Positions 384 through 53,000 of a stretch of DNA of 64,000 bases are shown piece by piece. The stretch's first letter is position 1, and the number at the start of each line of letters is the position of its first letter. Origin of the DNA: Mobula birostris (Eukaryota); assembly GCF_030028105.1 (NCBI RefSeq), contig NC_092383.1, positions 66,167,426-66,231,425 on the forward strand, in the 5' to 3' direction. The notes below the pieces were generated by a model. The model was given only the letters and a program-made list of their open reading frames with translations. It had not been told where the DNA came from and did not search any database. Made by a program: the position numbers and the translations under genes.

Positions 384-1108
384 ACAAGAAAACTTTATTT
401 CCATCTTTTACAGTTTCAAACTAACAAAAAATGAAAAGTGCCCAAAGCAAAAGTTTGGGCACCCTGCATGACACCCCCTTTGGCAAGTATCACAGCTTGT
501 AAATGCTTTTTGTAGTCAGCTAAGAGTCTTTCAATTCTTGTTTGGGGGATTTTCACCCATTCTTCCTTGCAAAAGGCTTCTAGTTCTGTGAGATTCTTGG
601 GCCGTCTTGCATGCACTGCTCTTTTGAGGTCCATCCACAGATTCTCAATGATGTTTAGGTCAGGGGACTGTGAGGGACATGACAAAACCTTCAGCTTGCA
701 CCACAAGAGGTAGTCCATTGTGGATTCTGATGTGTGTTTAGGATCATTATCCTGTTGTAGAAACCATCCTCTTTTCATCTTTGGCTTTTTTACAGATGGT
801 GTGATGTTTACTTCCAGAATTTGCTGGTATTTAATTGAATTCATTCTTCCCTCTACCAGTAAATGTTCCCCGTGCCACTGGCTAGAACACAAACCCAAAG
901 CATGATCCATCCACCCCCATGTTTAAGAGTTGGAGAGGGGTTCTTTTCATGAAATTCTGCACCTTTTTTTCTCCAAACATATCTTTGTTCATTGCGGTCA
1001 AAAAGTTCTATTCAAAAGGTTCAAAGGAACGTCTAAACAAGCCTAATGCTTTTTGGAAGCAAGTCCTGTGGACTGATGAAGTTAAAATAGAAGTTTTTGG
1101 TTGCAATG
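384..1108 (-). mobile_element. Tc1-family DNA transposon remnant, internally inverted
   Basis: ORF 416-910(-) has LQQDNDPKH...SPDLNIIENLW (DD34E region); the upstream piece FWKQVLWTDEVKIEVFG is on the + strand at ~1020-1108. Confidence 0.85.
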
Positions 1109-2142: not shown

Positions 2143-5100
2143 GTGAGCTGGGAGCCGGGTAACTGTAAATGGCGAGGGGTCGGCGGTCCGTGGGTGCGGA
2201 GGAGACACGTCCGAGCCCCGGCCCTCGTCTCTCTAAGGCGCTGGTCGTGGTGCGCGTATCTATGATCTTCGCAGGGGAAAGAGGATGGCTGGAAGGGTGG
2301 GAGCAGCGACTGAGAGACCGGCCGGGCCTTGCCGGAGAGCAGCCACGAGTTGTGGGGACGGTGGTAGAAGGTCAAGGGTTCGACAGTCTCTTGGTGTGGA
2401 GTGACTAGTTGAAGGTCACAGGTGGACCCTTACCTGTGGGTGTGGGGTGGCCAGTTCAAGGTCACAGATGGACCCTTTACTCTGGGTGTGGTGTTGCTGG
2501 TAGAAGGTCAGGTGCCCTCACCTGGTGACGGTTCCCCAAAGCTGTGGAGGGAGTGGGAGGGAACGGTGGAGGTAACCCCTGATGAGTATCCCTGACGAAG
2601 ACAGCAGAGTTTGTTATCGAGGCATCGGTTGTAATCAATAACTGTACCCGGCTTGAAGCCTGAGAAGAGGTTATTTGTGGAGAACTCAGTTCAGGAAAAA
2701 TTTTTGTAGAACCCGGATGCTGTGAAACAGCAGTTAATAATTTCTCCCTACAGTTGCTGACTGACGCTCAATGTAGGTTACATGGTCGGCACAACATTGT
2801 TATTGGTTATATTAACATTGTGGGCCGAAGGGCCTGTAATGTGCTGTAGATTTCTGTTTCTGTATTCCTCCAACACTTTGTTTTTGCAATCTTTGATCGA
2901 GTATTGGGCAGTGAGAAAGGAAATAACCTTGATGTAAATGGTCCTTGAAGGAAGAGTGACCAAAATGTGATATAATTTTACATTGAAAGGGATTTAAATT
3001 AAAGTAATTTAAAATCTTTCAGATAAAATAAAAATTGTGAAGGTACGAGGGGTGAATTGGCTGTGGTCAATTTGGAAATGACTTTTGAAAGCATGGCAGC
3101 AGACAGGCATTGACTAACGTTTAAGAAAATATTATTTGCAAAAGGGGGAGAAAGGTCATTTTAAAGCATAAAGCAGTGCAGGAGTAGTTGGCTAACAATG
3201 GTTGCCAGCAGTTATTAAAGATCAATTATAGGAGAGGCATATGCCATTGCCAGAAATAGCAGGAGGAAAAGATCGGCCATTAACTTAGTGATTGGAGTAT
3301 GCACAAAAGGTTGGGTAGCTTACGTCTAATACTTATATTCTTCTGGACGAGAGAAAACTTGGACAGGGCAACCTGCCCTCAGTATCCTGATACTGTTTCT
3401 AAGGAGTTTGTACATTCTTCCTGTGGCTAGGTGTGTTTCCTCTGGTTTTCCAGTTTCCTCCCACACGCCAACGATATGTGGGTCAGTAAGTTGGTCACAT
3501 GGGTGCAATTGGACACCATGGGCTAATGTGGGCTGGAAGACCCTGTTACAGTGGTGTATATTAAAATTAAATATGGAAGGGATTGGAATTATCAAGAATG
3601 TTTATTTATTGAGATACAGCACAGAACAGGCCCTTCAAACCATGCCGTCCAGCAACTCCCGATTTAATCCTAGTCAAATCACAGGATAATTTACAATGAC
3701 CAATTAACCTATCAACCGGTGTGTCATTGTACTGTGGGAGAAAACTGAACCACCTGGAGAAAACCCATGCTGTCACAGGGAGTGGGATTGGTCTTCTGTG
3801 TAATTCATTAGATGTTTGTGGAGATTTTCCACTTTAGTATTTGTGCACATTCGGTTTTGCTTGAGCAGATACCGCTGACATAGCAAGTACGTAATGTCAT
3901 TTCTTTCTCATTAGCCCTTGGAGGATCGTGGATGACTGTGGTGGTGCCTTTACCATGGGTGCCATAGGTGGTGGAATATTTCAGTCTATTAAAGGCTTTA
4001 GGAATTCACCAGTGGTATGTCATTTCACAAACCTGATAAAATTTTCATCTTTTTTATGTTCCTTAGTCTGAGATAATGTTCAGTTTCTTTGTACATTCTC
4101 CTAACCTTGTTTTTGCATGTGAAGTGATGTATTGCTTTTCTAACATCTCACTAATGTAGAAATAAAGTAGATAAAATTTTGATTTGCTCTATACAAGGAG
4201 GAGTCTAAAATCTTGCTTTACAGTTGTAATGAAGGATGTCAGAATTTGTACCATGAAACTGACAGCAACTTCTGAAATATTTGAATATATGATAAAATGT
4301 ATAAAATTCAGAAGTATCTGCTTTTGATTTTCCCGTTCCTTTACTGGATGCAATTTAGAGTTGTTCTCAGCGTAATCTTGTGAAGTTGGTAGAGTCAGTC
4401 ATAAAGCCCAGAAATAGGCCCTTTTTCATATGCCATCAAGTACTCATTTCTACTAGTCTTACTTAACAGCAGGCTGAGGTAGCAGACACCAACAGAATCA
4501 ACAAACTCATTTGTAAGGCCAGTGATGTTGTGGGATGGAACTGGACTCTCTGACAGTGGTGTCTGAAAAGAAGATGCTGTTTAAGTTGCATGCCACCTTG
4601 GACAATGTCTCCCATCCACTACATAATGTACGGTTGGGCACAGGAGTGCATTCAGCCAGAGGCTCATTCCACCGAGATGCGACACAGAGCGTCATAGGAA
4701 GTCATTCCTGCCTGTGGCCACCAAACTTTACAACTCCTCCCTTGGAGGGTTAGACATCCTGAGCCAATAGGCTGGTCCTGGACTTATTTCATAATTTACT
4801 GGCATAATTTACATATTACTATTTAACTATTTATGGTTTTATTACTATTATTTATGGTGCAACTATAATGAAAACCAATTTCTCCCGGGATCAATAAAGT
4901 ATGACTATGACTATCAACAGTTGGTGAGGAGTTTGCTAAGTGTTCTTGCAGTAAAATAAACTGAAAATGTTATGCAGTTATTATATGAAGTATAAGTGAA
5001 ATTTTAATAGCACAGCATATGTTTACTGCTGTTGGCAGCTTTTAATTGTTTAAAAACTAATGTACATCTGATCTGTAATAAATCTGGGCAAATATTTCAA

Positions 5101-8100
5101 AATATAACAAATTTTACCCTTTTCCCCCAGTTTTCACCAAGTTCCGATCTTAATCTTGTCTGATATCAGTGGCGGAAAAGTTATTGGAAGGTTTTCTAAG
5201 AGGCTGTGTATATAAGTATTTGGATAGTCATGGATTGATTTAAGGATAGTCAGCATGGCTTTGTATGTGGTAGGTCATACCTAATCATTTTTAGAGTCTT
5301 GTGAGGAAGTTACTAGGAAAGTGGATGAAGGCAAGGCACTGGATGTTGCCTACATGGCATTTGACGAGGTCCCACATGGCTGGTTGATCAAGAAGGTTCA
5401 GTCGCTCAGCATTCAAGATGAGGTAGTAAATTGGACTAGACATTGCCTTTGTGGTAGGGGGTTACCTCTGACTGGAGGCCTATGACTAATGTATGGCAGG
5501 GATCAGTGCTGCTCCATTGTTTGTTATCTATGTCCATGATTTGGATGATAAAGTGGTTAACTGGATCAGCAAATTTGTGGGTGACACCAAGGTTGGGGTT
5601 GTGGACAGTGATGAAGGCTATCATAGCTTGTAGAGGAATCTCTATCAGCTGAAAAAATGGCAGATGGAATTTAATGCAGACAAGTGCGAGGTGTAGTGCT
5701 TCAGTAGGACCAACCAGGGTAGGTCTTACACAGCGAATGGTAGGGCACTGAGGAGTGTTGTAGAATAAAGGGATCTGGGAATACAGGTACATGTTTCCTT
5801 GAAAGTGATGTTAAATGTCAATAGGGTCATAAAGAAAGGTTTTAGCACTTTGGCCTTCATATATCAAAGTACTGAGTGCAAGAGATGGTATGTTATATTG
5901 AAGTTGTATAAGGCGTTGGTGAGGCCTAATTTGGAGTATTGTGTGCTATTTTGGTCACCTACCTACAGGAAAAATGTAAATAAGGTTGAAAGGGTACAGA
6001 GAAAATTTACAAGGATGTTGCCTGAGTTATAAGGAAAGATTGACTAGGTTAGGACTTTATTCCTTAGAAAGTGGACGATTGAGAGATTTGATAGAGGTAT
6101 TCAAAATTGAGGGGGGAGTATAGATAGGGTAAATGCAACCAGGCTTTTTCCACTGAGGTTGGGTAGGACTGCAACCAGAGGTCATGGGTTAAGGGTGAAA
6201 GGTGAAAAGTTAAGGGGAACATGAAGGGAAACAACTTCACTCAGAGGGTTATGAGAGTGGAGCAAGCTGCCAACACAAGTGGTACATGTGAGCTTGATTT
6301 CAATGTTTTAAGGGAAATTTGGATAGGTGCATGGATGGTAGGGGTATTGAGGCTATGGTCTCTGCAGGTCTGTGGGAATAAGCAGTTTAAAAGGTTTAGG
6401 CATAGACTAGATGGGCATAAGGGCCTGTTTCTGTGCTGTACTTTTCTATCACTGCTGTAATTGCTAACAAGAGAATTATTTAACATCACTCGCTGCCTGG
6501 GCAATTTGATACTATAATTTTTGCTGGATTGTTTAGATCAATGTCAAAGGAAAAAGTCAAAGTTTTGGTGACATGGTGAATCTATGCAAACTTATAAGAA
6601 AATAGATGTGCTGTTGTGTTTTCTTTGTAATGGGTCTCATGCTGGTCTCAGGTCAGATCCTCTAATGTGATAATGCCAAGGAATTTAAAGCTGCTGATGC
6701 TGTCTACCTCCAATCTCCAGTGAGAACTGGCTTATGGATCTGGCTTCTTCCTGTAATTGATAATTAGTTTGATTTTGCTGACAGTGAGAAGTTGTTGCTG
6801 TGGTACCATTCATCCAGATTTTCTGTCTCCCTCCTATATGCAGATTAGTCACCATGCTCGATTTAGCCAGTGGCAGTAGTGTTGTCAGTAAACTTAAATA
6901 GGCATTGATTGGAGCTGTACTTAGCCCCACTATCAGATATAAAGTGAGTAAAGCAGGGTGCTTAACGCGCAGGGTGTAGTGCACGTGTGCTGATGGTAAT
7001 TGTGAAGGAGATAAGATACTATGAGATCTTCTATGGATAACAGACTTCTTTGAATTTGCAGTGAGCCTCATCTGGAAGCAAAGCTCACTGTCCCCTACGT
7101 CACAACATTTAACTTTGTAGGAGGTTATGGCATTCAGAACATGCCGCAGCTGTTGAACATCCCTTGTAGATTCCAGTCTAGTCTGGAATCTCCACTTTGC
7201 CTTTGAGACGACTTTTTGGAGGTCATTATTGCAGCTCTTGCAACATTCTTGATCTCCAGACTTGAATGCCTCTGATCTAGCTCACAACAAATTTTGGATT
7301 TCATTGTTCATCCAAAGCTTCAAGGCACACTCATCCATATGTCTACTCTTAATTCCTTGAATGATAACTGAAGTATGTAAATATTTTTGAATTTTGTATG
7401 AACTTTCCCCACGTTTCAAACATGCACAAAGATGCAGGTGACCCAGCCTTTGATTAAATGCATATGCATATTTCTTCTAAGCAGCAGACTACAAAATTCC
7501 ATCAATGATCTTCAGTTCTCACATTTGATGGTTTAATGTGGAGCAGAAGTCATGAGCTCCAGCAGAGCAGTTAAGTGTGTCAGCGCCATGACTGAAAATG
7601 CGGCAAGCGAGGCGGAATTCAAACCAGGCTGAAAAGCAGAGGGATGAGGCCTCCTCTACCCCGTCTTGTTGGCAAATATGTGGTTGCTGGAAAATATGAT
7701 TGATGATCTCAGGGCAAGGCTGCTATATCAGAGGCAGATCTCAATTGTTTGTTGCACTGAAACTTGGTTAATAGCGAACACACCAGATGTAGTGATACAG
7801 CCCGAGGATCTTACTAATTTTCTAATGATTAAATGTAGACCATTCTATTTGCCTCGGGAGTTCTCATACGTGATCCTGGCTGCAGTTCACATATCACCAG
7901 TGGCAGATTATAAGCAGGCAATTGTGAAACTGCATGATGTTGTCTGCAAGCAAGAAGCAGGCCATCCCGATGCATTTAACCAGGCCTGTTTGAAGAAAAC
8001 CCTGTCCAATTATCAGCGCATAATCTGATGCAACAGAGGTCCCAACACACCAAACCACTGCTACACTATGATAAGGAATGCCTTTTGTTCCTTTCTGAGA

Positions 8101-11100
8101 AACCATTTTGGCAAGTCGGTTAATTTGGCTGTACTCCTACTACCTGCATACAGACAGAGCCTAAAGAGCAAGGCTCCTGAAATCAAGACAACTTGGTGGT
8201 TGCAGGAGGCAGAGGAATGGCTATAGGGTTGAGTTGAGTCAGTGGACTGGGCCGTGTTCAAGTACTCATCTGAGAACCTGAATGACTACACCAAGGTTGT
8301 AACAGACTATTAAAACAGTCCTGGATGAGTGTGTCTTGAAGCCCTGGATGAACAATGAAATCCAGAATTTGTTGTGAGTTAGATCAGAGGCATTCAAGTC
8401 TGGAGATCAAGAATGCTGCAAGAGCTGCAATAATGACCTCCAGAAAGTCATCTCAAAGGCAAAGTGGAGGTTCCAGACTAGACTGGAATCTACGAGGGAT
8501 GTTCAACAACTGCGGCATGTTCTGAATGCCATAACCTCCTACAAAGTTAAATGTTGTGACATAGAGAACAGTGAGCTTTGCTTCCGGATGAGCTCAATGC
8601 CTCTGTGCTCGCCTTGACCCCAGAACAGTGAAGAATCATTGCACACCCCCATGTCTCCCGATGATCCTTTGGTCTCAGTATCTGAAGACGATGTGTGGGC
8701 TGCCTTTAAGAGAGTGAATCCAAGGAAAGCAGCCAGTCCGGATGGAGTACCTGGCCAGGTGCTGAAGATCTGTGCTGACCAGCTGGCTGGAGTATTAATA
8801 GATATCTTCAACTCTTGCTCTGGCAGTGTGTGGTACCCACCTGCTTCAAGCAGGCTTCAGTCGTACCAGTGCCCAAAGAGAGTGTGGTAACCTGCCTCAA
8901 TGACTATCGCCCAGTGGCATTTACATCCACAGTGATGAAATGTTTTGAGAGGCTGGTGTTGAAGCATATCAGCTCCTGTCTGAGTGGCAGCTTGGATCTG
9001 CTCCAATTTGCCTACCTTAGTAACAGGTCTACAGCAGATCCCATCTCATTGGCTCTTCACACAATCCTGGATCATCTGGACAGCAAAGATGCATACATCT
9101 GGATATATTTTATAGATTACAGCTCAGCATTTAATACCATCATCTCCTCAAAACTAATTAGTAAACTCCAAGACCTGGATCTCAGTACCCCTTGTGCAGT
9201 TGGATCCTGGATTTCCTCACTTGTAGACCCCAATCAGTTCGGATTGGCAAAAACATCTGGTCCACAATCTCTATTAGCACAGGAGCACCACAGGGATATG
9301 TGCTCAACCCCCTGCTCTACTTGCTTTACATCTATGACTGTGGCCAAGAACAGCTGCAGCACTATATACAAGTTTGCTGATGACACCACTGTTGTGGCGA
9401 TGAATCAGCATACAGGAGGGAGATTGAAAATTTAGCTGAGCGGTGTAGTAATAATAATAATAACGATAGCCTCTCACTCAAGGCCAAAGAACTTATTGAA
9501 GACTTCAGTAGAGGGAAACCAGAGGTCCCTGAGCCAGTACTTATTAGAGGAGCAGAGGTGGAGAGGGTCAGTAACTTTAAATTCCTGGGTGTCACTATCT
9601 CAGAGCACCTGTTCAAGACCCATTATATATTGCAAAGAAAGCACAACAGCACCTCTACTTCCTTAGGAGTCTGCAGAGATTTGGGTGGAATGTCATCAAA
9701 AACTTTGGCAAACTTCTATAGATGTGTGCTGATATAGACTGGCTGCATTACGGCCTGGTATGAGAACACTAATGCCTAAGAGCAGAAAGTCCTACAAAAG
9801 GTAGTGGATTCAGCCCAGTACATCATGCATAAAATCCTTCCAACTATTGAGCACATCTACATGAAACATCGCTTAGGAAAGCAGCATCCATCATCAAACA
9901 TCCTCACCACCCAGGCCATGCTCTTTTCTCACTGCTGCCTTTATGTAGAAGGTACAAGAACTAAAGGACTCTGGCCACCAGGTTCAAGGACAGTTACTAC
10001 TGCTCAATCATCAGGCACTACACTCATTCTCCTTCTGGTGTTCCCACAACCGATCGCCTCACTTTAAGGACTCTTTATCTTGTTATTTCATGCTTGTTAT
10101 TTATTTCTATTTATTTACATTTGCATCTGCACAGTTTGTCCATTGATCCTGCTTACAGTTACTGTTGTATGGATTTGCTAAGTATGCCCACAGAAATGAA
10201 TCTCACGGTTGTATGCAGTGACATTTATGTACACTGATAAATTTTACTTTGAATTTTAATATAACTAATATGACATTGACCTTTTGTAGCAATATTGTTA
10301 TTATGGTGTACTTTTGAAATAGGTTACTGAAGTTACTTATGTAATATTAATTTTGTTACATTTCTTTGCCTCTTGTATACTTTTGATATTTTTTTTTGTT
10401 TTTTCTTTAAACAGGGAATGAGTCACCGATTACGTGGAAGTTTGACTGCTGTTAAGAGTAGAGCTCCACAGATAGGAGGTACTTTGGTTGTATTTGCTTG
10501 TTTGATCTTTCAAGCTAAACAGTTTTTAAAATGTCAGTTCTCATAAGGCTGTTCATGATCAGCATTTGGGAAATTATCCACACTTTATAACTGAATGCTG
10601 AGGTATCTGTTCTGTAAATATCATTGTTCTTTTGATCTGTCTTGGAAATAAGATTTTGAGCCTGCAAATTATTTACTAAATTATACCAACAATGCAATAC
10701 TTTGTTGACTTGGAACATTATTACACAAGTCAGAATATGCTCCTGCTTCACTTTGGGATTTCGGGGAGAATGCTATAGTGTCAGAGTGCTATCTTTTGAA
10801 TGACTGTTCATTATGCTGCGGCATTTAGGGCAGCAGTGAAGGTCCTGCATTTCTGGTGGTGTTCAGGGCTTCCTTCATCATGTCAGTAGCTTCCTCTCAG
10901 CTTTCACTATTGTCTGTCATGAAAATCCCGGGTGGAGACTCCAGAATACCGTCACACTTAGATGTAGAAAGATTCTTCATAGCTGTTTCCACAACAATTT
11001 TGTTTTACTGGTCAAGGTTGTTAGCCCCGGGCTGAACACCCAAACCTGGAGGTCAAGTGGACCACTCTTAGTCTGGCCTCTACCCTTTGATCTGTTTGAC

Positions 11101-20017: not shown

Positions 20018-21377
20018 CAGGCAGTCCCCGGGTTATGAACGAGTTCTGTTCCTGAGTCCATCTTTAAGTCGGATTTGTACATAAGTTGGAACAGGTACAT
20101 CCGATATTATTTAGCAACAGTTAGTCAAGCGTTTGTCTTAGTATATAGTATATATTTTATCTTTCTTTGCATATAAAACACTTAAGAAATGTATAGAAAA
20201 CATAGAAAATAGGTGCAGGAGTAGGCCATTTGGCCCTTCGAGCCTGCACCGCCATTTATTATGATCATGGCTGACCATCCAACTCAGAACCCTGCACCAG
20301 CCTTCCCTCCATACCCCCTGATCCCCCTAGCCACAAGGGCCATATCTAACTCCCTCTTAAATATAGCCAATGAACTGGCCTCAACTGTTTCCTGTGGCAG
20401 AGAATTCCACAGATTCACCACTCTCTGTGTGAAGTTTTTCCTAATTTCAGTCCTAAAAGGCTTCGCCTTTATCCTCAAACCGTGACCCCTCATTCTGGAC
20501 TTCCCCAACATCGGGAACAATCTTCCTGCATCTAGCCTGTCCAATCCCTTTAGGATTTTATACATTTCAATCAGATCCCCACTCAATCTTCTAAATTCGA
20601 ACGAGTACAAGCCTAGTTCATCCAGTCTTTCTTCATATGAAAGTCCTGCCATCCCAGGAATCAATCTGGTGAACCTTCTTTGTACTCCCTCTATGGCAAG
20701 GATGTCTTTCCCCAGATTAGGGGACCAAAACTGCACACAATACTCCAGGTGTGGTCTCACCAAGGCCTTGTACAACTGCAGTAGTACCTACCTGCTGCTG
20801 TACTGGAACCCTCTTGCTATAAATGCCAGCATACCATTGGTATGTATTTCAATAATTAAATCAGTGCATTGCTTAGTAATAATTGTAGCTTTAATCGGGG
20901 CAGGGCCTTTCACATGCTCTATTATTCTCACTTTATCCTTTACCCTTTAAAATTGTTCTGATCGTTGACCAACTGTAGCTTAACGCTTTTCCAATGACCG
21001 ATGATGTTTCACCTCTTTCCGATCGCTTTATTATTTTCACTTTATTTTCAATCGTGATCGTTTTCCGTCAACGGAACAGAAACATTGCGGATTCAGCAGC
21101 AGCCGTGGGTGGTGGGTCCTGACCTGAGCTCCCCTGGATCGTAAAGTCCACCCACACTGAGACAGGTTAAATGGGACAAGTGGGGGCGGTGCTGACTGGA
21201 AAAGGGTGGGGGGTGGTCAGGGTGAATCTTGCTAAGAAAAATTTAAGCCAAATACAAAGTTATACCCGCAGCAATGTTGACAGTAACGACTTAAAATGGC
21301 GGATGGCGTTCTCCATCCTCTGTTCGTGAAGTGCGAGTTGTTCATAAGTTGAATGTTTGTAACTCGGGGACTGCCTG
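20018..21377. mobile_element. Tigger/pogo-type MITE containing a younger CR1 fragment
   Basis: TIRs CAGGCAGTCCCCGGGTTA... and ...TAACTCGGGGACTGCCTG, flanked by TA at 20016-17 and 21378-79. Confidence 0.88.
20193..20840 (-). mobile_element. Young 5'-truncated CR1 LINE
   Basis: Uninterrupted 163-aa ORF 20284-20775 (YKALVRPHLEYCVQFWSP...); TTTTCTATG-type tail. Confidence 0.92.
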
Positions 21378-44000: not shown

Positions 44001-47000
44001 AATGAATCAAAGCAAGGTTTCTGGATCTAAGAAGTCCAGCATGCCCAGGAGAGATCAGACTCAGAGTCTGAGGAGTCAGTGTCCACAAGGAAGGCCTGCA
44101 CCTCACCCAGTTCAGCTGATTTCATCCACCCAGGCCTGCAGGCCTGGGTGGATGGCCTATCATACCTTGTGTGATTAAAACCTTGTCAGGAAGCTCAATG
44201 TCATTACAGCTTTCCAAAGTTATACTCAAGTGATAGCCCAGATTACAGGCTTGAATTCAGAAATGGATTAAGTTCACAGCTGCATTGTCTCCAGGAAACC
44301 ATTTTTCAGATGCTTAACAAAAAAAACAAGGAAAAGATATGTATACAAATTCTGGGTCTTATCAAACTACTATCTCACATGGTACCTATTCTTCCTTTGC
44401 CACACTGTCTGAAAATGACTGAATCCTCATTTGCTAGAATGCGTATTGCTGGAACACATTTATCAATTAGCAGATTATATTGTTTAACAACTGCAAATAG
44501 TAGGGAAACTAAATAGATTTCAACTTCAGAGAAATAGTACATGATATTCTAGCTTACACACTGTTCTCATCAACATATACTACAGCAAACTCAAAATTTC
44601 AGAATACCAATTTTAAATTAATTAACTAATGCTTTATAGAAAAAAGAAATGAAGCAAATTTAAAACCAAAATCGAATCTTCAAACTTTAGAATAGCCATT
44701 GTCTCTAATAGAATTTTGCACTGAACCTTGATACCAGCACTCCTAATAATGATATTGCTAACTAAGGAGTTAGAATTTTTATAGATGGTAGAGGTTAGGA
44801 CAGAAATGGGAAATACAGTCGGCCCTCCTCATCCGCGAAGGATTGGTTCTGAGACCCCCCGCTGACACCAAAAACGCAGATGCTCAAGTCCCTTATTTAA
44901 CCTGTCTCAGTGCGGGTGGACTTTAGGACCCAGGGCAGCACAGGACCCACCGCCCTCAGTGTTTATGTTCTGTTGACTTACAATACCTAATACAACGTAA
45001 ATGCTATGTAAATAGTTGTTACACTGTATTGTTTAGGGAATAATGACAAGAAAAAAAGTCTGTACATGTTCAGTACAGGCGCAATCATCGTAGCTCTTCT
45101 GGGAACACTGATGCCGCCTCAGCGTCAGCCAATTCCGATTCTCCCGTGATCTTTAAGTTCTTGAGGCTGCAGTGCTTTACACAGCCAGCCAGCCATCCCT
45201 AGCACTAACACTTCCACGAATTTCAGCTTTATTGTGCAAATGCTCGATTCGTTCTTACCGACTTTACGGCTCACTTCGGAATGCAACACGCCACTTTTCA
45301 GAAGATCTAATATTTCTAATTTCTCGGCGAGGGATAGCACTTTACGCTCCCTCTTAGCCTTTGAGGAATTGCTTTGACCACGTAATTGCTTTATAGGAGC
45401 CATTTATTCACAGAAACAAAGTAGCAAGTGAACGAGATGCAAGGCAAACAATGCTCGAACGAGTGCTGGAGAGAGAACTTCTGGGTTTTCCCGATTCGCG
45501 GTTGGTTGAATTCGTGCATGAGCAACTCGCGGATAAGGAGGGCCGACTGTAGTTCAGACTGGGAAACATCCAATCTCTCACGAATTTCAATAACTATATA
45601 CATTACTGTGCAAAATTGTTAGCTATAGATATAGCAAGGGTGCCCAAGACTTTTGCACAGTGCCATAGTAACTTTATGCTGCCAAAAAAAAATATTCATG
45701 ATATGCGTGAATGATGAGAAACCTGATTCTGATATGGGTCTCTATCGTAGACAGAGTGGGAAGGAGGCAGGGAGAGGGGTATCATAGTTAGGAAAAGGGG
45801 AAGGGAGAGGGGCGAGAGTGTGGAGCACTAGAGAAACATTCTGCAATAATAAAACATTTGTCTGGAATCAAATAACCTTGCCTGGTGTCTTAGGGCCAGG
45901 TTTGTCTGCACCCACATCACCCAACATTCATTGCTCCCGCCAGATTTACAAACCCGCTCTCCGATCCATGTTGAGAAATACAGTACTGTATAAAAGTCCT
46001 AGGTATTTAATACTGTAAAAACTCAAGGATAAATTTAACCACACTGTAAATTATATATTTGAAGTCATTTGTAGTCAGCAAGGGGATTATTCAGTTTGGT
46101 CTACTATGACTATTGCAGATCAACTTAAGAAAGGGAAAAATGAACAAATTACAACAATCAACACACACAAAAGTTGCTGGTGAACGCAGCAGGCCAGGCA
46201 GCATCTCTAGGAAGAGGTACAGTCGACGTTTTAGGCCGAGACCCTTCGTCAAGACTAACTGAAGGAAGAGTGAGTAAGGGATTTGAAAGTTGGAGGGGGA
46301 GGGGGAGATCCAAAATGATAGGAGAAGACAGGAGGGGGAGGGATGGAGCCAAGAGCTGGACAGGTGATAGGCAAAAGGAATATGAGAGGATCATGGGACA
46401 GGAGGTCCGGGAAGAAAGACGGGGGGGGGGGGGGGGACCCAGAGGATGGGCAAGGGGTATATTCAGAGGCACAGAGGGAGAAAAAGGAGAGTGAGAGAAA
46501 GAATGTGTGTATAAAAATAAGTAACAGATGGGGTACGAGGGGGAGGTGGGGCCTTAGCGGGTTAGAGAAGTCGATGTTCATGCCATCAGGTTGGAGGCTA
46601 CCCAGACGGAATATAAGGTGTTGTTCCTCCAACCTGAGTGTGGCTTCATCTTTACAGTAGAGGAGGCCGTGGATAGACATGTCAGAATGGGAATGGGATG
46701 TGGAATTAAATTGTGTGGCCACTGGGAGATCCTGCTTTCTCTGGCGGACAGAGCGTAGATGTTCCGATCTCCCAGTCTGCGTCGGGTCTCGCCAATATAT
46801 AAAAGGCCACATCGGGAGCACCGGACGCAGTATATCACCCCAGTCGACTCACAGGTGAAGTGTTGCCTCACCTGGAAGGACTGTTTGGGGCCCTGAATGG
46901 TGGTAAGGGAGGAAGTGTAAGGGCATGTGTAGCACTTGTTCCGCTTACACGGACAAGTGCCAGGAGGGAGATCAGTGGGGAGGGATGGGGGGGACGAATG

Positions 47001-50000
47001 AGTGAAAGGGTACAAACATGAAATATTTTGTAATAGACCGAGGACAAATTAGAGGTCAATGAGGAAGCACAGAAAAAAAGAAAACTGTATGAGTAATGGT
47101 AAAACAGCTAACATTCCTGAGAAATGATTTTCTATTATACAGTGCCTTGCAAAAGTATTCAGCCCCCACAAGTATTTTCACATTTTACTGTCTCATTTTC
47201 TAAATTTAAAATATATTGAAGTAGGATTTTTGAGCTAATCTACAAAATATTGTGCATCATGTCAAATCAAAAGAAAAATTCCAAACGCTGTCAATAATTT
47301 ACAAAAAATTACAACTCACTCAATTTGTTGATGTAGAAAATTGGAGGATCACCTGGTTTGTATGAATTCCTAAGAATAAATACCCCCTCTTTCTGTAAGG
47401 TCCAACAGTATGGTTGACTTTCATTAGATCAAACCAAAATGAAGGCAAAAGAGAATTCAAGACAAGGTGAGGAGATGATAATAGAGAAGTACAAATCTGG
47501 GGAAGGGTACATGACCATCTCAAAGGCACTGAATATGCCCCAGAGCTCAGTGCAGTCCATTGTGGATAAAATGGAAAACAAATGAAACCAGAGACACCAC
47601 AGCCTAGGTCAGGCCATCCCTCTAAACTTAGTCATCAGAGAAGAATGGCACCTGTAAGAGGTAACTGTGACACTAACAGTCACTGAGTGAGCTGCAGAAA
47701 TCAATGGCTGCAACTGGAGATAAGTTCATGGCTTCACAATCTAAGGCCTTACACAAAAATAGTATTTGTGGAAGAGTGGCAAGGGAGAAGCCCTGGCTAA
47801 AAAAATAGCATTTCCTTGCCCGTAAAGATTTTGCAAAGCATCACTTTGAAGATACTCTAAAGATGTGGAAGAAGGTCTTGTGGTCAGATAAGACTAAAGT
47901 GAACTAAATGGCCTAAATTTGGGGTAAATCAAATACGGCACATCAGCCAGGTAACACCATTCCTCCTGTAAAGTATGGAGAGGTAGCATCATGTTATGGG
48001 GATGTTTCTCAGCAACAGGGACTGGAAATCAGGAATTGATGAAAAGATGAACACTGCCCAAATACATAGAGATCCTGGATAAAAACTGTACTCTTTTCTA
48101 TAGATGCTGCCTGGCCTGTTGAACTCCTCCACTATTTTGAGTGTGTTCCCTGGATAAAAACCTGCCAGCCTCTGCAAGAAAACTTAAACTGAGGAGGAAG
48201 TTTGTCTTTCAGCAGGACGAGGACCCAAAGCACACTGCCAGAGCAACAATGGAGTGCTTCAAATGAAGAAAATTGATGCCCTTGAGTGGCCCAGTCAGTC
48301 CTGACCTTAACCCAACTGAAGGCCTCGATACTGCTGTCTACTGCCACTCCCCAACTAACCTGGCAGAGCTTGAGCAATTTTGCAAGGAGGAAAGGGGAAA
48401 CCCTGTTCCCTCACATTGCGCAAAGCAAATAGAGACACTGTGGCGACCCATTTTCTGGCACACACGAACCGGCGCACAACAGTGTGCGCAGGCAGAGGGC
48501 CGGCCCCAAAAAGGGCGCCAGGCCATCTTCACCAGCAGGGGGAAAATCCCGCGCACGGAAAGGGTCTGGGAATATGCATTCCCCACAGCAATCCCGCCCC
48601 AGAGAGGGCGGGAACGGGAAGGCTTTAAAGCAGGCCGCGAAGTTTGAATAAATCTCTTTCATCGCAACTCTAACTCACCGACTCCGTGTGGTTATTCTAG
48701 CGCTGTGTGTAGCACACCGCTACAATTGGTGACCCCAACGGCCCAAACGATATTTCGACCAGAGATGACCGATGCCGCACCTGTTCACGCAGTTTCGTTA
48801 AAACTGCCAAGCTTCTGGACGCTGAGACCCCATTTATGGTTCTAACAAGCAGAAGCTCAATTCCACATTCGGCAGATAACCTCGGAGTCCACTCGCTACT
48901 ACTACGTGCTGAGCTCCCTCGACCAAGAGACTGCTGCACAAGTTGAGTTTATACAGTCGCCCCCGGAGGACGGCAAATACACAGCATTCAAAGCCCTGCT
49001 CATAAGGACTTTCGGACTCTCACGGCGCGAACGAGCACGCCGCTTAATGCACCTGGATGGTTTGGGAGACAGGCCGCCGTCAGCATTAATGAACGAGATG
49101 TTGGCCCTGGCTGAAGGACACAAACCCTGCCTCATGTTTGAGCAGGCGTTCCTAGAGCAACTGCCCGAGGACATATGCCTGCTGCTGTCCGACGCAGATT
49201 TCAGCAACCCCCGGGAGGTGGTGGCCCGAGCAGATGTGCTGTGGAATGCCAGGAAAGAGAGAGGGGCGCCCGTCGCACAGATCACCAAGCCGCGAGCCCA
49301 ACGAACAATGGTGTTTCTACCACCAGCGGTGGGGCACAGAGGCCCGCCGCTGCAGACCACCCTGCAAATTCCCGGGAAACGCCAGGGCCAGCCGCCGCTG
49401 ATGGCTACGGCGGCTGGCCATCAGGACAGCCTCCTGTACGTCTGGGACAAGCAGTCGGGACGCTGCTTTTTGGTCGACACCGGAGCGGAGATCAGCGTCT
49501 TACCTCCGACAGGGGCGCCCAGTTCACCTCCAGCCTGTGGTCGGCTATGGCCAACCTTTTAGGATCACAGCTACACCACACAACTGCCTACCACCCACAG
49601 TCGAACGGACTAGTGGAGCGCTTCCACCGTCACCTGAAATCGGCTCTCATGGCCCGCCTGGAGGGACCTAACTGGGTGGACGAGCTTCCCTGGGTCCTGC
49701 TCGGAATCCGCACGGCGCCCAAAGAGGATCTGCACACCTCGTCGGCCGAGTTGGTGTACGGCGCACCCCTGGTAGTCCCAGGAGAGTTCATACCAGCCCC
49801 AAAGGGGCAAGAGGAAGAACCCACAGCAGTCCTGGACAGACTACGGGACAGGCTCGGTAACCTGACCCCCATCCCCACTTCACAGCACGGACAGAGCCCG
49901 ACCTGCATAACTGTAAGTTTCTTTTTGTACGACGGGGCGGACACCAGGCACCGCTACAGCGACCCTACGAGGGGCCGTTTAAGGTGATCAGGAACAACGG

Positions 50001-53000
50001 GTCCACGTTCGTGCTGGACATTGGGGGGAGAGAGGAGGTTTTCACGGTGGACCGACTCAAAGCGGCCCATGTGGACTTTGCGCAGCCGGTCCAGGCTCAG
50101 GCACCACGGCGCAGGGGCAGACCTCCCAAACAGAGGCCGATCCAGACTGTGGACATTGGGGGAGGTATCGCCGGTTTTGGTGGGGGGGGGGGGTTATGTG
50201 GCGACCCACTTTCTGGCACACACGAACCGGCTCACAACAGCGCGCGCAGGCAGTGGGCCGGCCCCAAAAAGGGCGCCAGGCCATCTTCACCAGCAGGGGA
50301 AAAATCCCGCGCGCGGAAAGGGTCTGGGAATATGCATTCCCCACAGCAATCCCGCCCCAGGGAGGGCGGGAACGGGAAGGTTTTAAAGCAGGCCGCGAAG
50401 TTTGAATAAATCTCTTTCATCGCAACTCTATCTCACCGACTCCGTGTGGTTATTCTAGCGTTGTGTGTAGCACACCGCTACAACACATCCCTAAAGACTA
50501 CTGGCTGTAACAGCTGCGAGGGGTGATTCTACTAAGTACTGAGAAAAGGAGGATGAATACTTTTGAACTGCTGACATTTCAGGTTTTGAATTTTTAGTTT
50601 CTCATGCTCTGCAATTTCCTTGCTTTTCAGACTGTGAAAAAAGGGGCATGTGATTCACGAATAAAAATTCTCAGTTAAACCAGTATTACAACCAGGGATT
50701 TTGATAAGTTTGTGCGAACAAAGTGTTGGAGGCTGAATACTTTTACAAGGTACTGGAAATAGCAGTCAGTCAGGTACACTCTTAAAGAGAAAGCATAGTG
50801 GGCATGGATTTGAAAGCTGCATATTCATCTTGTGGCAGGAGGGTAGGTGTGCCATATTTTGGGTATTAAAAAACTTAAATCTTGAAAGGAAGCAACTTTC
50901 TTTCTGTTGATCCATCAGTTAAAAACAAATTATTCACATACCAATTTGCTATTTTTGTTAAATTGTTAGTGCAGGCAATTTCAGTGTTATCTGTGCATAT
51001 TAAACAATTACAAAAAAAAAACTTGAAAATCTGAAGCAAAGTTCATCAGCAGAGACTTGTGAATGAACCAAAGATTTTTGATAATACATCATAAAGCAGA
51101 TTTACCTTCCCCATACATATGGTCCAAACAACTTCTCACCAACTGTCAAGAACTCTTCAATTACACCATTAAATTCTTCCTTAGCAGCTTCAAGCAGACA
51201 CGGTTCAGTCCAGACACGGCTTCTATACCAGATACAGAATTCACATTATACCCGAGCAGTAAGAGAATGGGGGGGAAAAACCCTACTTCATGACAAACAT
51301 TCTTAAAAACCTATTTAGCCACCTTATAGAGGTAGAATGATAAGGCAACCAATGCCACTATTACTTCCCACATTCTGCACACTACAAGTTAAAGCCGTAC
51401 TTTGCTTTAATTACAATTCCTCTATTAGAAAAGTAGGTCAAAAACTGACGGCTACAGTGGAAGTGATTCAAATATTAACCAGATAGGAGGCCATTAGTGC
51501 CATAAAGCTCTTTTAGATTGCCTAATTAAGATAGACCCATGTCCTTTGTACCTTAAGTGAGTACAGTACAAATACTTTGAGGCTACATGATAAATTTTAC
51601 ACAATGTTTAAAGAGGTCAGTACTTCACCAATACAGAGTATGTTTATGTCCCTGCCTTTGAATGCATACAATATTCAATCCAGAATCTTAAATCTTTGAT
51701 GCCACAGGTGAACTGCCAGATGACTTAAAGACAGCACCTTTATTTAAGAAGGGGAGCAAGCACAAGTCTGGTAATTATGCCCTACTGTCAATGGAAGAAC
51801 AGCTATTGAAAAAGTTCAAAGGACAGGATTAGTCTACCCTTGGAAAGGCAGGGACTAATCAAAGACAGTCAGCTAGGTTTGTTGTTGCAGTGGGGGAAGA
51901 GATCTTGACCAAATGTAACAAATGTAATCATGAAGACAGCGTGGTCTACATGACCTTTGACAAGATCTCACCCTGGCAAACTGGTCCAAAAAGGTTAGAA
52001 CCCTCAAGTAAGTTTGAGACTCTTACTGTTTGGTTGATACATTAAAGATCTGGGTCTGAAAGTAGGAGATATAAAGGATAAAACCAACATTAATAGGGAG
52101 GAGAGTCAATTTACAGAATGACATTAAACAATTTGTAGGAAGGGCAGAGCAACTGCAAATGGAGTTTAATCCTGGTAAGTGTGTGACGCTGCTTTGAGAG
52201 GACCAACAAGGTCAGCACCTGCACAATGAATAATGTGGCTCTAGAGAGTAATGAAGAATAGAGGAAACTTTGTGTGCAAGTCACAGATCAGTGAAGGAGA
52301 GAACACAGATTGGAAACGAGTTGAAGAGGGCATGTGTGATACTTGCCTTCCTTAGGCAGGGCAGTAAATATAAAAGCAATGAAGTTAAGACACAGTTGGA
52401 GTACTCAGAAGTTCTGTTTGCCATGCTGCAGGATGGGCATGAATGCACTGGAGAGGGTGCAGAGGAGATTCTGCAGGATGCTGCCTGGGATGAAGGGGTT
52501 TCAGTAAAGAGGAGAAACTGGACAGGCTGGGCTTGTTTTCTTTGGAGCAGGGGAGGCCGAGCAAGAACTTGATAGATATACAGAATTATGAACGCCACAG
52601 ATAATAAACTCTCCCCTTGGCAGAGAAAAGCTTCCAAATGGAAGACTACACAGAAGACTGCTGAGACCATGACTTCCACTCTATCGAATAGAATTAATCT
52701 GTGAACTGGCAAAAACAGAACAGCCATGGTTGTTTTTAAAAATTCTAACTCATGAAGTAGTTTCAGGGAAAAGACTAACCTTGGTCCAACCTCTGCAGAC
52801 ATAATGTCACCAACTGCCAAAGCAACAAGATATGCAGGAATTGGGTGTTCCATTTTGAAGTGGAATACATTTTCCTTTTCATCGTGTTCCCAGTTAGTTG
52901 CACTCATAACAGCGGTAAAACCTTCAGGAACCTGAAACAAAATTCATGTGGTAATGGAACCCAGAATCTCCTAATGTACTGAATCACATTGAGTCAGAGT

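What the first reader, a model, noticed from the sequence alone, without database searches (positions are those of the whole stretch)
44816..45549. MER2-like Tigger element: horizontal-transfer candidate that retains a transposase N-terminus
Seen: 22-bp TIRs, TA TSD and a pogo/CENP-B-type HTH ORF start. From memory of the human MER2 consensus (not a database search), both ends and the non-coding AT-rich block 44976-45089 (aatacctaatacaa.gtaaatgctatgtaaatagttgtta.actgtattgtttagggaataatgacaagaaaaaaagtctgtacatgttcagtacag) match with only a few differences. Such identity in non-coding transposon DNA between a mammal and an apparent chondrichthyan would be far too high for vertical descent. Inference: horizontal transfer. 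This copy also ties MER2-type ends to a transposase, so the genome may hold the autonomous parent.
Basis: partly seen in the sequence, partly recalled or inferred. Interest (0 to 1): 0.7.

Follow-up and report, generated by a model that had tools for sequence, protein, structure and literature searches.

The report
Dead ray Tigger transposon, MER2-like ends
This is a broken 734-base copy of a cut-and-paste jumping gene in an intron of a ray gene, one of at least 85 like it, whose decayed full-length parents sit in the same genome; the family likely reached rays by jumping between species, but its match to the human repeat MER2 is recalled, not computed.

Summary
The anatomy is real: 23-bp inverted ends, TA duplication, and a Tigger transposase remnant (codons 1-71 and 140-177 of 596, frameshifted). 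The copy belongs to a ~748-bp non-autonomous family (85 junction hits, about 5.6% from consensus) and carries a 75-bp patch from a second Tigger-like family. The parent is in the genome: seven 2.2-2.5-kb copies with matching ends, all broken; a consensus of 13 copies gives an open 596-aa DD32D transposase. The genome also holds a 344-bp non-coding derivative, the better MER2 candidate; the window copy is only 77% like it. The transposase groups with skink and whipworm proteins (76%, 68-69%), not with the elephant or dugong ones (64-65%), which fits horizontal spread. Identity to mammalian MER2 was not computed and rests on recall. Tigger transfer between placental mammals and cartilaginous fish is already reported, for what appear to be other elements. 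This scan noted MER2-like Tiggers in three other elasmobranch windows. New here: the parent, the derivative series, and one copy fused to a GTF2I-like gene in stingrays and devil rays, which likely dates the family to 66 million years or more.

The parts
44814..44815 (.). TA target-site duplication
   Evidence: TA on both sides in 18 of 20 copies
44816..44838 (-). 3' terminal inverted repeat (transposase sense), 23 bp
44839..44900 (-). subterminal 3' end shared with the long parents and the 344-bp derivative
44901..44975 (-). 75-bp GC-rich (63%) patch replacing the parent's sequence; matches a second Tigger-like family
   Evidence: 72-88% to 12 of 12 donor loci; present in 20 of 20 family copies
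44976..45089 (-).
   Evidence: 105 of 110 columns identical to this genome's own family-end consensus over about 44990-45098; MER2 identity not computed
45090..45200 (-). transposase codons about 140-177 (end of HTH_Tnp_Tc5 and linker), out of frame with the N-terminus; followed by deletion of the catalytic domain
   Evidence: 90% to parent nt 717-825
45201..45403 (-). transposase codons 1-71 (CENP-B_N helix-turn-helix); 10-bp deletion near 45227 shifts the frame in this copy
45404..45526 (-). 5' untranslated region, subfamily A type
   Evidence: 342 of 362 identical between the family consensus and subfamily A 5' end
45527..45549 (-). 5' terminal inverted repeat, 23 bp
45550..45551 (.). TA target-site duplication
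20018..21377 (.). copy of the second Tigger-like family, likely donor family of the patch, with a LINE fragment inside

Best explanation
It is a dead, internally deleted copy of a Tigger (pogo-type) DNA transposon family whose broken full-length parents are in the same genome; it was likely moved in trans by the parent's transposase, and the family likely entered the ray lineage by horizontal transfer at or before the end of the Cretaceous. Shown: inverted ends, TA duplication, two deletions with fixed junctions across copies, a patch matching another family, decayed parents, and a DD32D transposase at consensus level. Inferred: the parent's transposase bound the ends, cut the element out and inserted it at TA. 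Interrupted gap repair with template switching after excision made the derivative series (about 344, 660, 748 and 1,600 bp), the mix of subfamily A and B parts, and the 75-bp patch. Inferred from recall only: placental MER2 is a derivative of the same element, from a parallel invasion of mammals.
For: Family structure. Parents: (596 aa; D194, D308, D341). All broken: 7 of 7 long copies have at least 2 stops; 3 more broken; only 18 loci keep the catalytic-domain DNA. The second deletion junction is shared by 20 of 20 748-bp copies and 16 of 17 660-bp copies. Similar divergence across derivatives, 5.5-6.5%, fits one burst. Tree at odds with host phylogeny: ray + skink + Trichuris 100/99, with coelacanth (50%) and teleost (48%) far outside. 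No named shark, skate or chimaera protein among the 251 rows listed. The shared fusion insertion in Mobula, Hemitrygon and Hypanus sets a likely minimum age near the K-Pg boundary (PMC6485097 passages). MER2 was active around the split of the mammalian superorders (PMC1914374 passages).
Against: No DNA from any non-ray host was compared, so no dS test was made. The nearest relatives (91% and 94%; P0005, P0248) are unnamed and could be other cartilaginous fish. Absence of shark hits may reflect that decayed elements are not annotated; two searches listed only the best 120 of 390 and of 555 hits. Ancient paralogy with loss can also give an incongruent tree. The tested groups were named after the first tree was seen. 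The mammalian transposases found fall in a sister clade. Three other windows of this scan report similar elements in shark-or-ray genomes (unchecked), which could mean a wider, older distribution.
Confidence: 0.75

Rival explanations
1. An old, vertically inherited chondrichthyan Tigger lineage that burst late; the likeness to MER2 is limited to conserved transposase-binding ends or is misremembered.
For: No non-ray DNA tested. Mammalian transposases retrieved are only 62-65% identical and lie in another clade. Tigger is widespread in vertebrates (PMC7386202 passages).
Against: Nematode proteins nest inside the clade, and a vertebrate-only clade is rejected. DNA transposons evolve neutrally within vertebrate genomes (PMC7070016 abstract and passages), so long vertical persistence is unlikely. 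The recalled match covers internal non-coding sequence, not only the ends (recall).
Confidence: 0.15
2. Assembly contamination with mammalian DNA.
For: Only the recalled likeness to a mammalian repeat.
Against: Copies lie on more than 25 large contigs with distinct flanks and TA duplications. This copy sits between exons of the host aminopeptidase gene. A related copy is fused to a host gene in several rays.
Confidence: 0.01
3. The window copy is a co-opted element that supplies a DNA-binding peptide or a splice site to the aminopeptidase gene.
For: Same orientation as the host gene. A related copy does donate an exon elsewhere.
Against: The frame is shifted after codon 59, and its divergence (6.0%) is ordinary for the family.
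Confidence: 0.03

Closest known systems
Tigger family of the pogo superfamily (PMC7386202 passages; PMC9219625 section 8 part 1, passages, one supplement search)
   Same: TA duplication, short inverted repeats, CENP-B_N + HTH_Tnp_Tc5 + DDE_1, DD32D within the DD29-36D range, parent length 2.2-2.5 kb.
   Different: The terminal motifs, N-terminal peptide and Trichuris were not found in that paper's supplement (0 hits; long cells are cut and the sequence file may not be held as text). The two chondrichthyan rows seen have other repeat motifs.
Human MER2 / MER2B (listed as Mariner-class in PMC5753468 passages)
   Same: From recall only: terminal and AT-rich 3' sequence, and a length near 345 bp that matches the sister 344-bp derivative.
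   Different: The window copy is 734 bp, keeps coding sequence, has subfamily A ends and a foreign 75-bp patch. The passages seen name parents for MER44, MER30 and MER1 but none for MER2. Identity not computed.
Afrotherian Tigger transposases P0016 (elephant) and P0027 (dugong); recalled as Tigger7-like
   Same: Same domains, 64-65% identity.
   Different: Sister clade; union with the ray protein rejected.
MER6, a composite mammalian MITE (PMC6887750, abstract only)
   Same: A mammalian MITE traced to an element found in a distant vertebrate, with a captured foreign segment.
   Different: Different element; the captured piece there is a SINE domain.

Membership tests
Tigger (pogo superfamily) | TA target-site duplication | tested here: met
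   (18 of 20 copies on both sides)
Tigger (pogo superfamily) | short terminal inverted repeats (8-33 bp) | tested here: met
   22 of 23 in the window copy, 24 of 24 in the consensus
Tigger (pogo superfamily) | CENP-B_N plus HTH_Tnp_Tc5 DNA-binding domains | tested here: met
   over cut-off in L017 (CENP-B_N), L208 exon and P0248 (both); below cut-off in the window copy
Tigger (pogo superfamily) | DDE_1 catalytic domain with DD29-36D spacing | tested here: met
   parent consensus DD32D; DDE_1 in P0248; deleted from the window copy
autonomous element | intact transposase ORF in a genomic copy | tested here: not met
   7 of 7 long copies with stops; 3 of 3 more broken. Of the 18 loci, 16 were read and are broken or deleted; 2 were not read and match only part of the probe.
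MER2 | high identity to the MER2 consensus beyond the inverted repeats | not testable with these tools
   no repeat library or mammalian DNA copy on hand; full-text motif search found 0 papers
MER2 | short non-coding element of about 345 bp (length recalled) | tested here: not met
   window copy is 734 bp with coding remnants; a sister family has a 344-bp consensus (10 copies)
horizontally transferred element | element tree at odds with host tree | tested here: met
   16 chosen rows; groups named
horizontally transferred element | patchy taxonomic distribution | tested here: inconclusive
   named hits of 85% or more only from myliobatiform rays; annotation bias; closest full-length relatives unnamed
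horizontally transferred element | DNA divergence below host dS | not testable with these tools
   no non-ray DNA of the family obtained (searches gave none close)

The most novel reading that the evidence does not exclude
Stingray-lineage genomes preserve the autonomous parent of the placental repeat MER2, plus a ray version of MER2 itself. One Tigger element invaded placental mammals and rays in parallel in the Late Cretaceous, within a clade that also reached skinks and whipworms, and in rays one copy was spliced onto a GTF2I-like gene.
Probability: 0.65. Interest if true: 0.68.

Novelty: new member of a known kind. Interest (0 to 1): 0.45.

Why it matters
Transfers involving mammals are rare: 24 of at least 975 events involved mammals or birds (PMC7070016 passages). 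If the MER2 match holds, the ray supplies the transposase and full structure behind a common human repeat for which the papers seen name no parent, at only 5-6% decay, and the fusion gene gives an independent age. If it fails, this is an ordinary dead Tigger family with one interesting fusion.

Tried and rejected
Metagenome contigs: 77 loci, the long matches only 32-44% identical, none of this family. Viral contigs: 22 pattern matches, 0 confirmed, so no vector was seen. The generic DDE_1 search returned other Tigger families; none of its top 15 loci matched the element's DNA. Search for a parent with the longer C-terminal tail of P0248: 0 of 44 matches passed residue 52 of 72, so the long ray copies lack about 20 final codons and a 45-bp 3' block that the small derivatives keep; the complete master was not found (the tail is low in complexity and may match poorly). 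Selection on the fusion exon: pN/pS 0.33 against 0.63 pooled, Fisher p = 0.22, not significant. Full-text motif search: 0 papers. Pace and Feschotte 2007 and Smit and Riggs 1996 were not held. PMC10162687 has no mention of Tigger or MER2. Sequence look-up among earlier scan findings: nothing. The careful 43-row tree did not finish; one search shows the quick tree.

Full report
Observation. The element runs 44816-45549. Its ends are inverted repeats that agree at 22 of 23 bases, with TA on each side. On the minus strand an ORF starts at 45403 and reads as a Tigger N-terminus. In this copy it scores below Pfam's CENP-B_N cut-off; a sister copy passes. A second transposase piece follows out of frame. 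The element lies between exons (about 51122 and 42316) of an M1 aminopeptidase gene on the minus strand; the motifs used to find the exons and the label 'aminopeptidase B-like' are recalled, and the first exon has one weak PDB aminopeptidase hit. The host is inferred to be a myliobatiform ray, because GTF2I-like exons in the genome are 82-100% identical to a Mobula protein.

A family, not a single relic. The genome search had 3,226 candidates and scored 40; 39 of these match at least 710 of 734 bases, at 85-90% for non-self hits. The 20 best were fetched: consensus 748 bp, TA on both sides in 18 of 20, mean K2P distance 5.6% (3.5% without CpG). These are top hits, so the distance is biased low. 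The first deletion junction occurs 85 times with at most one mismatch (41 exact, control 0); a Poisson estimate gives about 120 copies.

The parent. A protein search with the N-terminus gave a 607-aa full-length relative, P0005. Searching the genome with it (72 of 5,410 candidates scored, stricter filter) gave copies at up to 85%. Of 20 loci chosen from these, 17 had both ends, seven of them 2,190-2,459 bp. They form subfamilies A (4 copies) and B (13 copies), 92.9% alike over 1,890 bases. The B consensus reads as an open 596-aa protein with D194, D308 and D341, that is DD32D. No copy is intact: 7 of 7 long copies carry at least two stops and 3 of 3 more are broken. Only 18 loci keep DNA of the catalytic domain (18 of 18 candidates scored); 16 were read and 2 match only part of the probe. 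The long copies lack the last 20 or so codons of P0248 and a 45-bp 3' block, so the complete master was not found.

Anatomy and mechanism. The window family keeps codons 1-71 and about 140-177, then the 3' end. Its 5' end is subfamily A (342 of 362). Its second junction is shared with a 660-bp subfamily B family (20 of 20 and 16 of 17 copies). Bases 44901-44975 replace the parent's sequence with a patch that matches 12 of 12 fetched loci of a second Tigger-like family at 72-88%; 9 of those 12 are 712-747 bp, and one copy lies in this window at 20018-21377. Fixed junctions across dispersed copies are shown. That they arose by interrupted gap repair with template switching, and were then spread in trans by the parent's transposase, is inferred from established Tc1/mariner-pogo biology.

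The MER2 question. Searching with one short copy gave 30 loci; 29 had both ends: 10 of 309-357 bp, 17 of 642-680 bp and 2 of 535-552 bp. The short ones give a 344-bp non-coding consensus, 6.5% diverged, made of the parent's two ends and the 45-bp block. From recall, human MER2 is about 345 bp and has these ends, so this derivative, not the window copy (77% over 282 columns), is the MER2 counterpart. That identity was not computed: no repeat library or mammalian DNA copy was on hand, and a full-text motif search found 0 papers. The claim stays open.

Horizontal spread at protein level. The B consensus is 94% and 91% identical to two unnamed proteins, then 76% to a skink, 68-69% to Trichuris, 65% to elephant, 64% to dugong, 62% to opossum, 50% to coelacanth and 48% to a teleost. 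In a 16-row tree of chosen representatives, ray, unnamed, skink and three Trichuris rows form a clade (100/99). A vertebrate-only clade is rejected (p-AU 0.0006), and so is ray with afrotherians (p-AU 0.003). The groups were named after the first tree, the model had no mixture, and the other 230 or so proteins held were left out. Against: no DNA comparison, unnamed nearest relatives, and annotation bias against dead elements. Metagenome and viral scans gave nothing close.

Age. One 1,006-bp B copy (L065/L208) supplies codons 1-191 in frame, with a splice donor in its own 3' end, to a GTF2I-like gene. The same junction appears in annotated proteins of Mobula, Hemitrygon and Hypanus. P0250 is letter-identical to this genome's exon and is not counted as independent. 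If the insertion is orthologous (inferred from proteins only), the family predates the split of stingrays from pelagic rays, placed around or slightly before K-Pg (PMC6485097 passages). MER2 activity falls near the mammalian superorder splits (PMC1914374 passages), which is compatible. The exon is intact where only 1 of 23 other copies is, but its pN/pS (0.33 against 0.63) is not significantly lower.

What is known. Diaby 2022 (PMC9219625; outline, section 8 part 1 of 2, passages, one supplement search) reports Tigger transfer between Eutheria and two sharks; this family's motifs were not found in its supplement. Gao 2020 (PMC7386202 passages) defines Tigger. PMC5753468 passages list MER2 without a parent. 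PMC7070016 (abstract and passages) finds mammal transfers rare and does not mention Tigger or MER2. Searches (listings only, apart from the papers named) showed no report of MER2 in rays or of the fusion. Repbase, Dfam and subscription papers were not searchable. This scan has noted MER2-like Tiggers in three other elasmobranch windows, each without a computed match.

Verdict. A real, dead Tigger derivative with its parent recovered. Horizontal origin is likely, and the MER2 link is plausible but untested. New member of a known kind; interest 0.45.

Noticed in passing
L208:1901-2906 and 4219-8613 (G000:C29, about 44,451,900-44,458,600): A Tigger copy donates an in-frame DNA-binding exon (CENP-B_N + HTH_Tnp_Tc5) to a GTF2I/GTF2IRD2-like gene; the same junction is in Mobula, Hemitrygon and Hypanus proteins. 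Candidate host-transposase fusion; no paper found (listing).
   Followed up: partly
L209:2593-4299: A paralogous GTF2I-like gene has an open ORF of at least 569 aa from a different Tigger family (36% to this one, all three domains) about 860 bp upstream of its exon; possibly a second, independent capture.
   Followed up: partly
window 20018-21377: Second Tigger-like non-autonomous family (about 712-747 bp, different inverted repeats, TA flanks) with a LINE fragment inserted; likely donor of the 75-bp patch.
   Followed up: partly
proteins P0007, P0009, P0006, P0016, P0034: Related transposases fused to host N-termini: SCAN or repetitive segments in a skink, KRAB in elephant and Podarcis.
   Followed up: no
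proteins P0005 and P0248: Intact 607- and 611-aa transposases, 91-94% identical to the ray consensus, on element-sized contigs (2.4 and 2.1 kb) from unnamed sources; may mark a recently active relative.
   Followed up: partly
L021-L025, L045, L051, L061: Several other Tigger-like ORFs of 515-601 aa without stops in this genome: domesticated genes or young elements.
   Followed up: no
window 48846-50409: Gypsy-like retroelement remnant (gag, protease and integrase-like frames, label from recall) in the same intron.
   Followed up: no
window 416-922: Tc1-like transposase fragment on the minus strand (label from recall).
   Followed up: no
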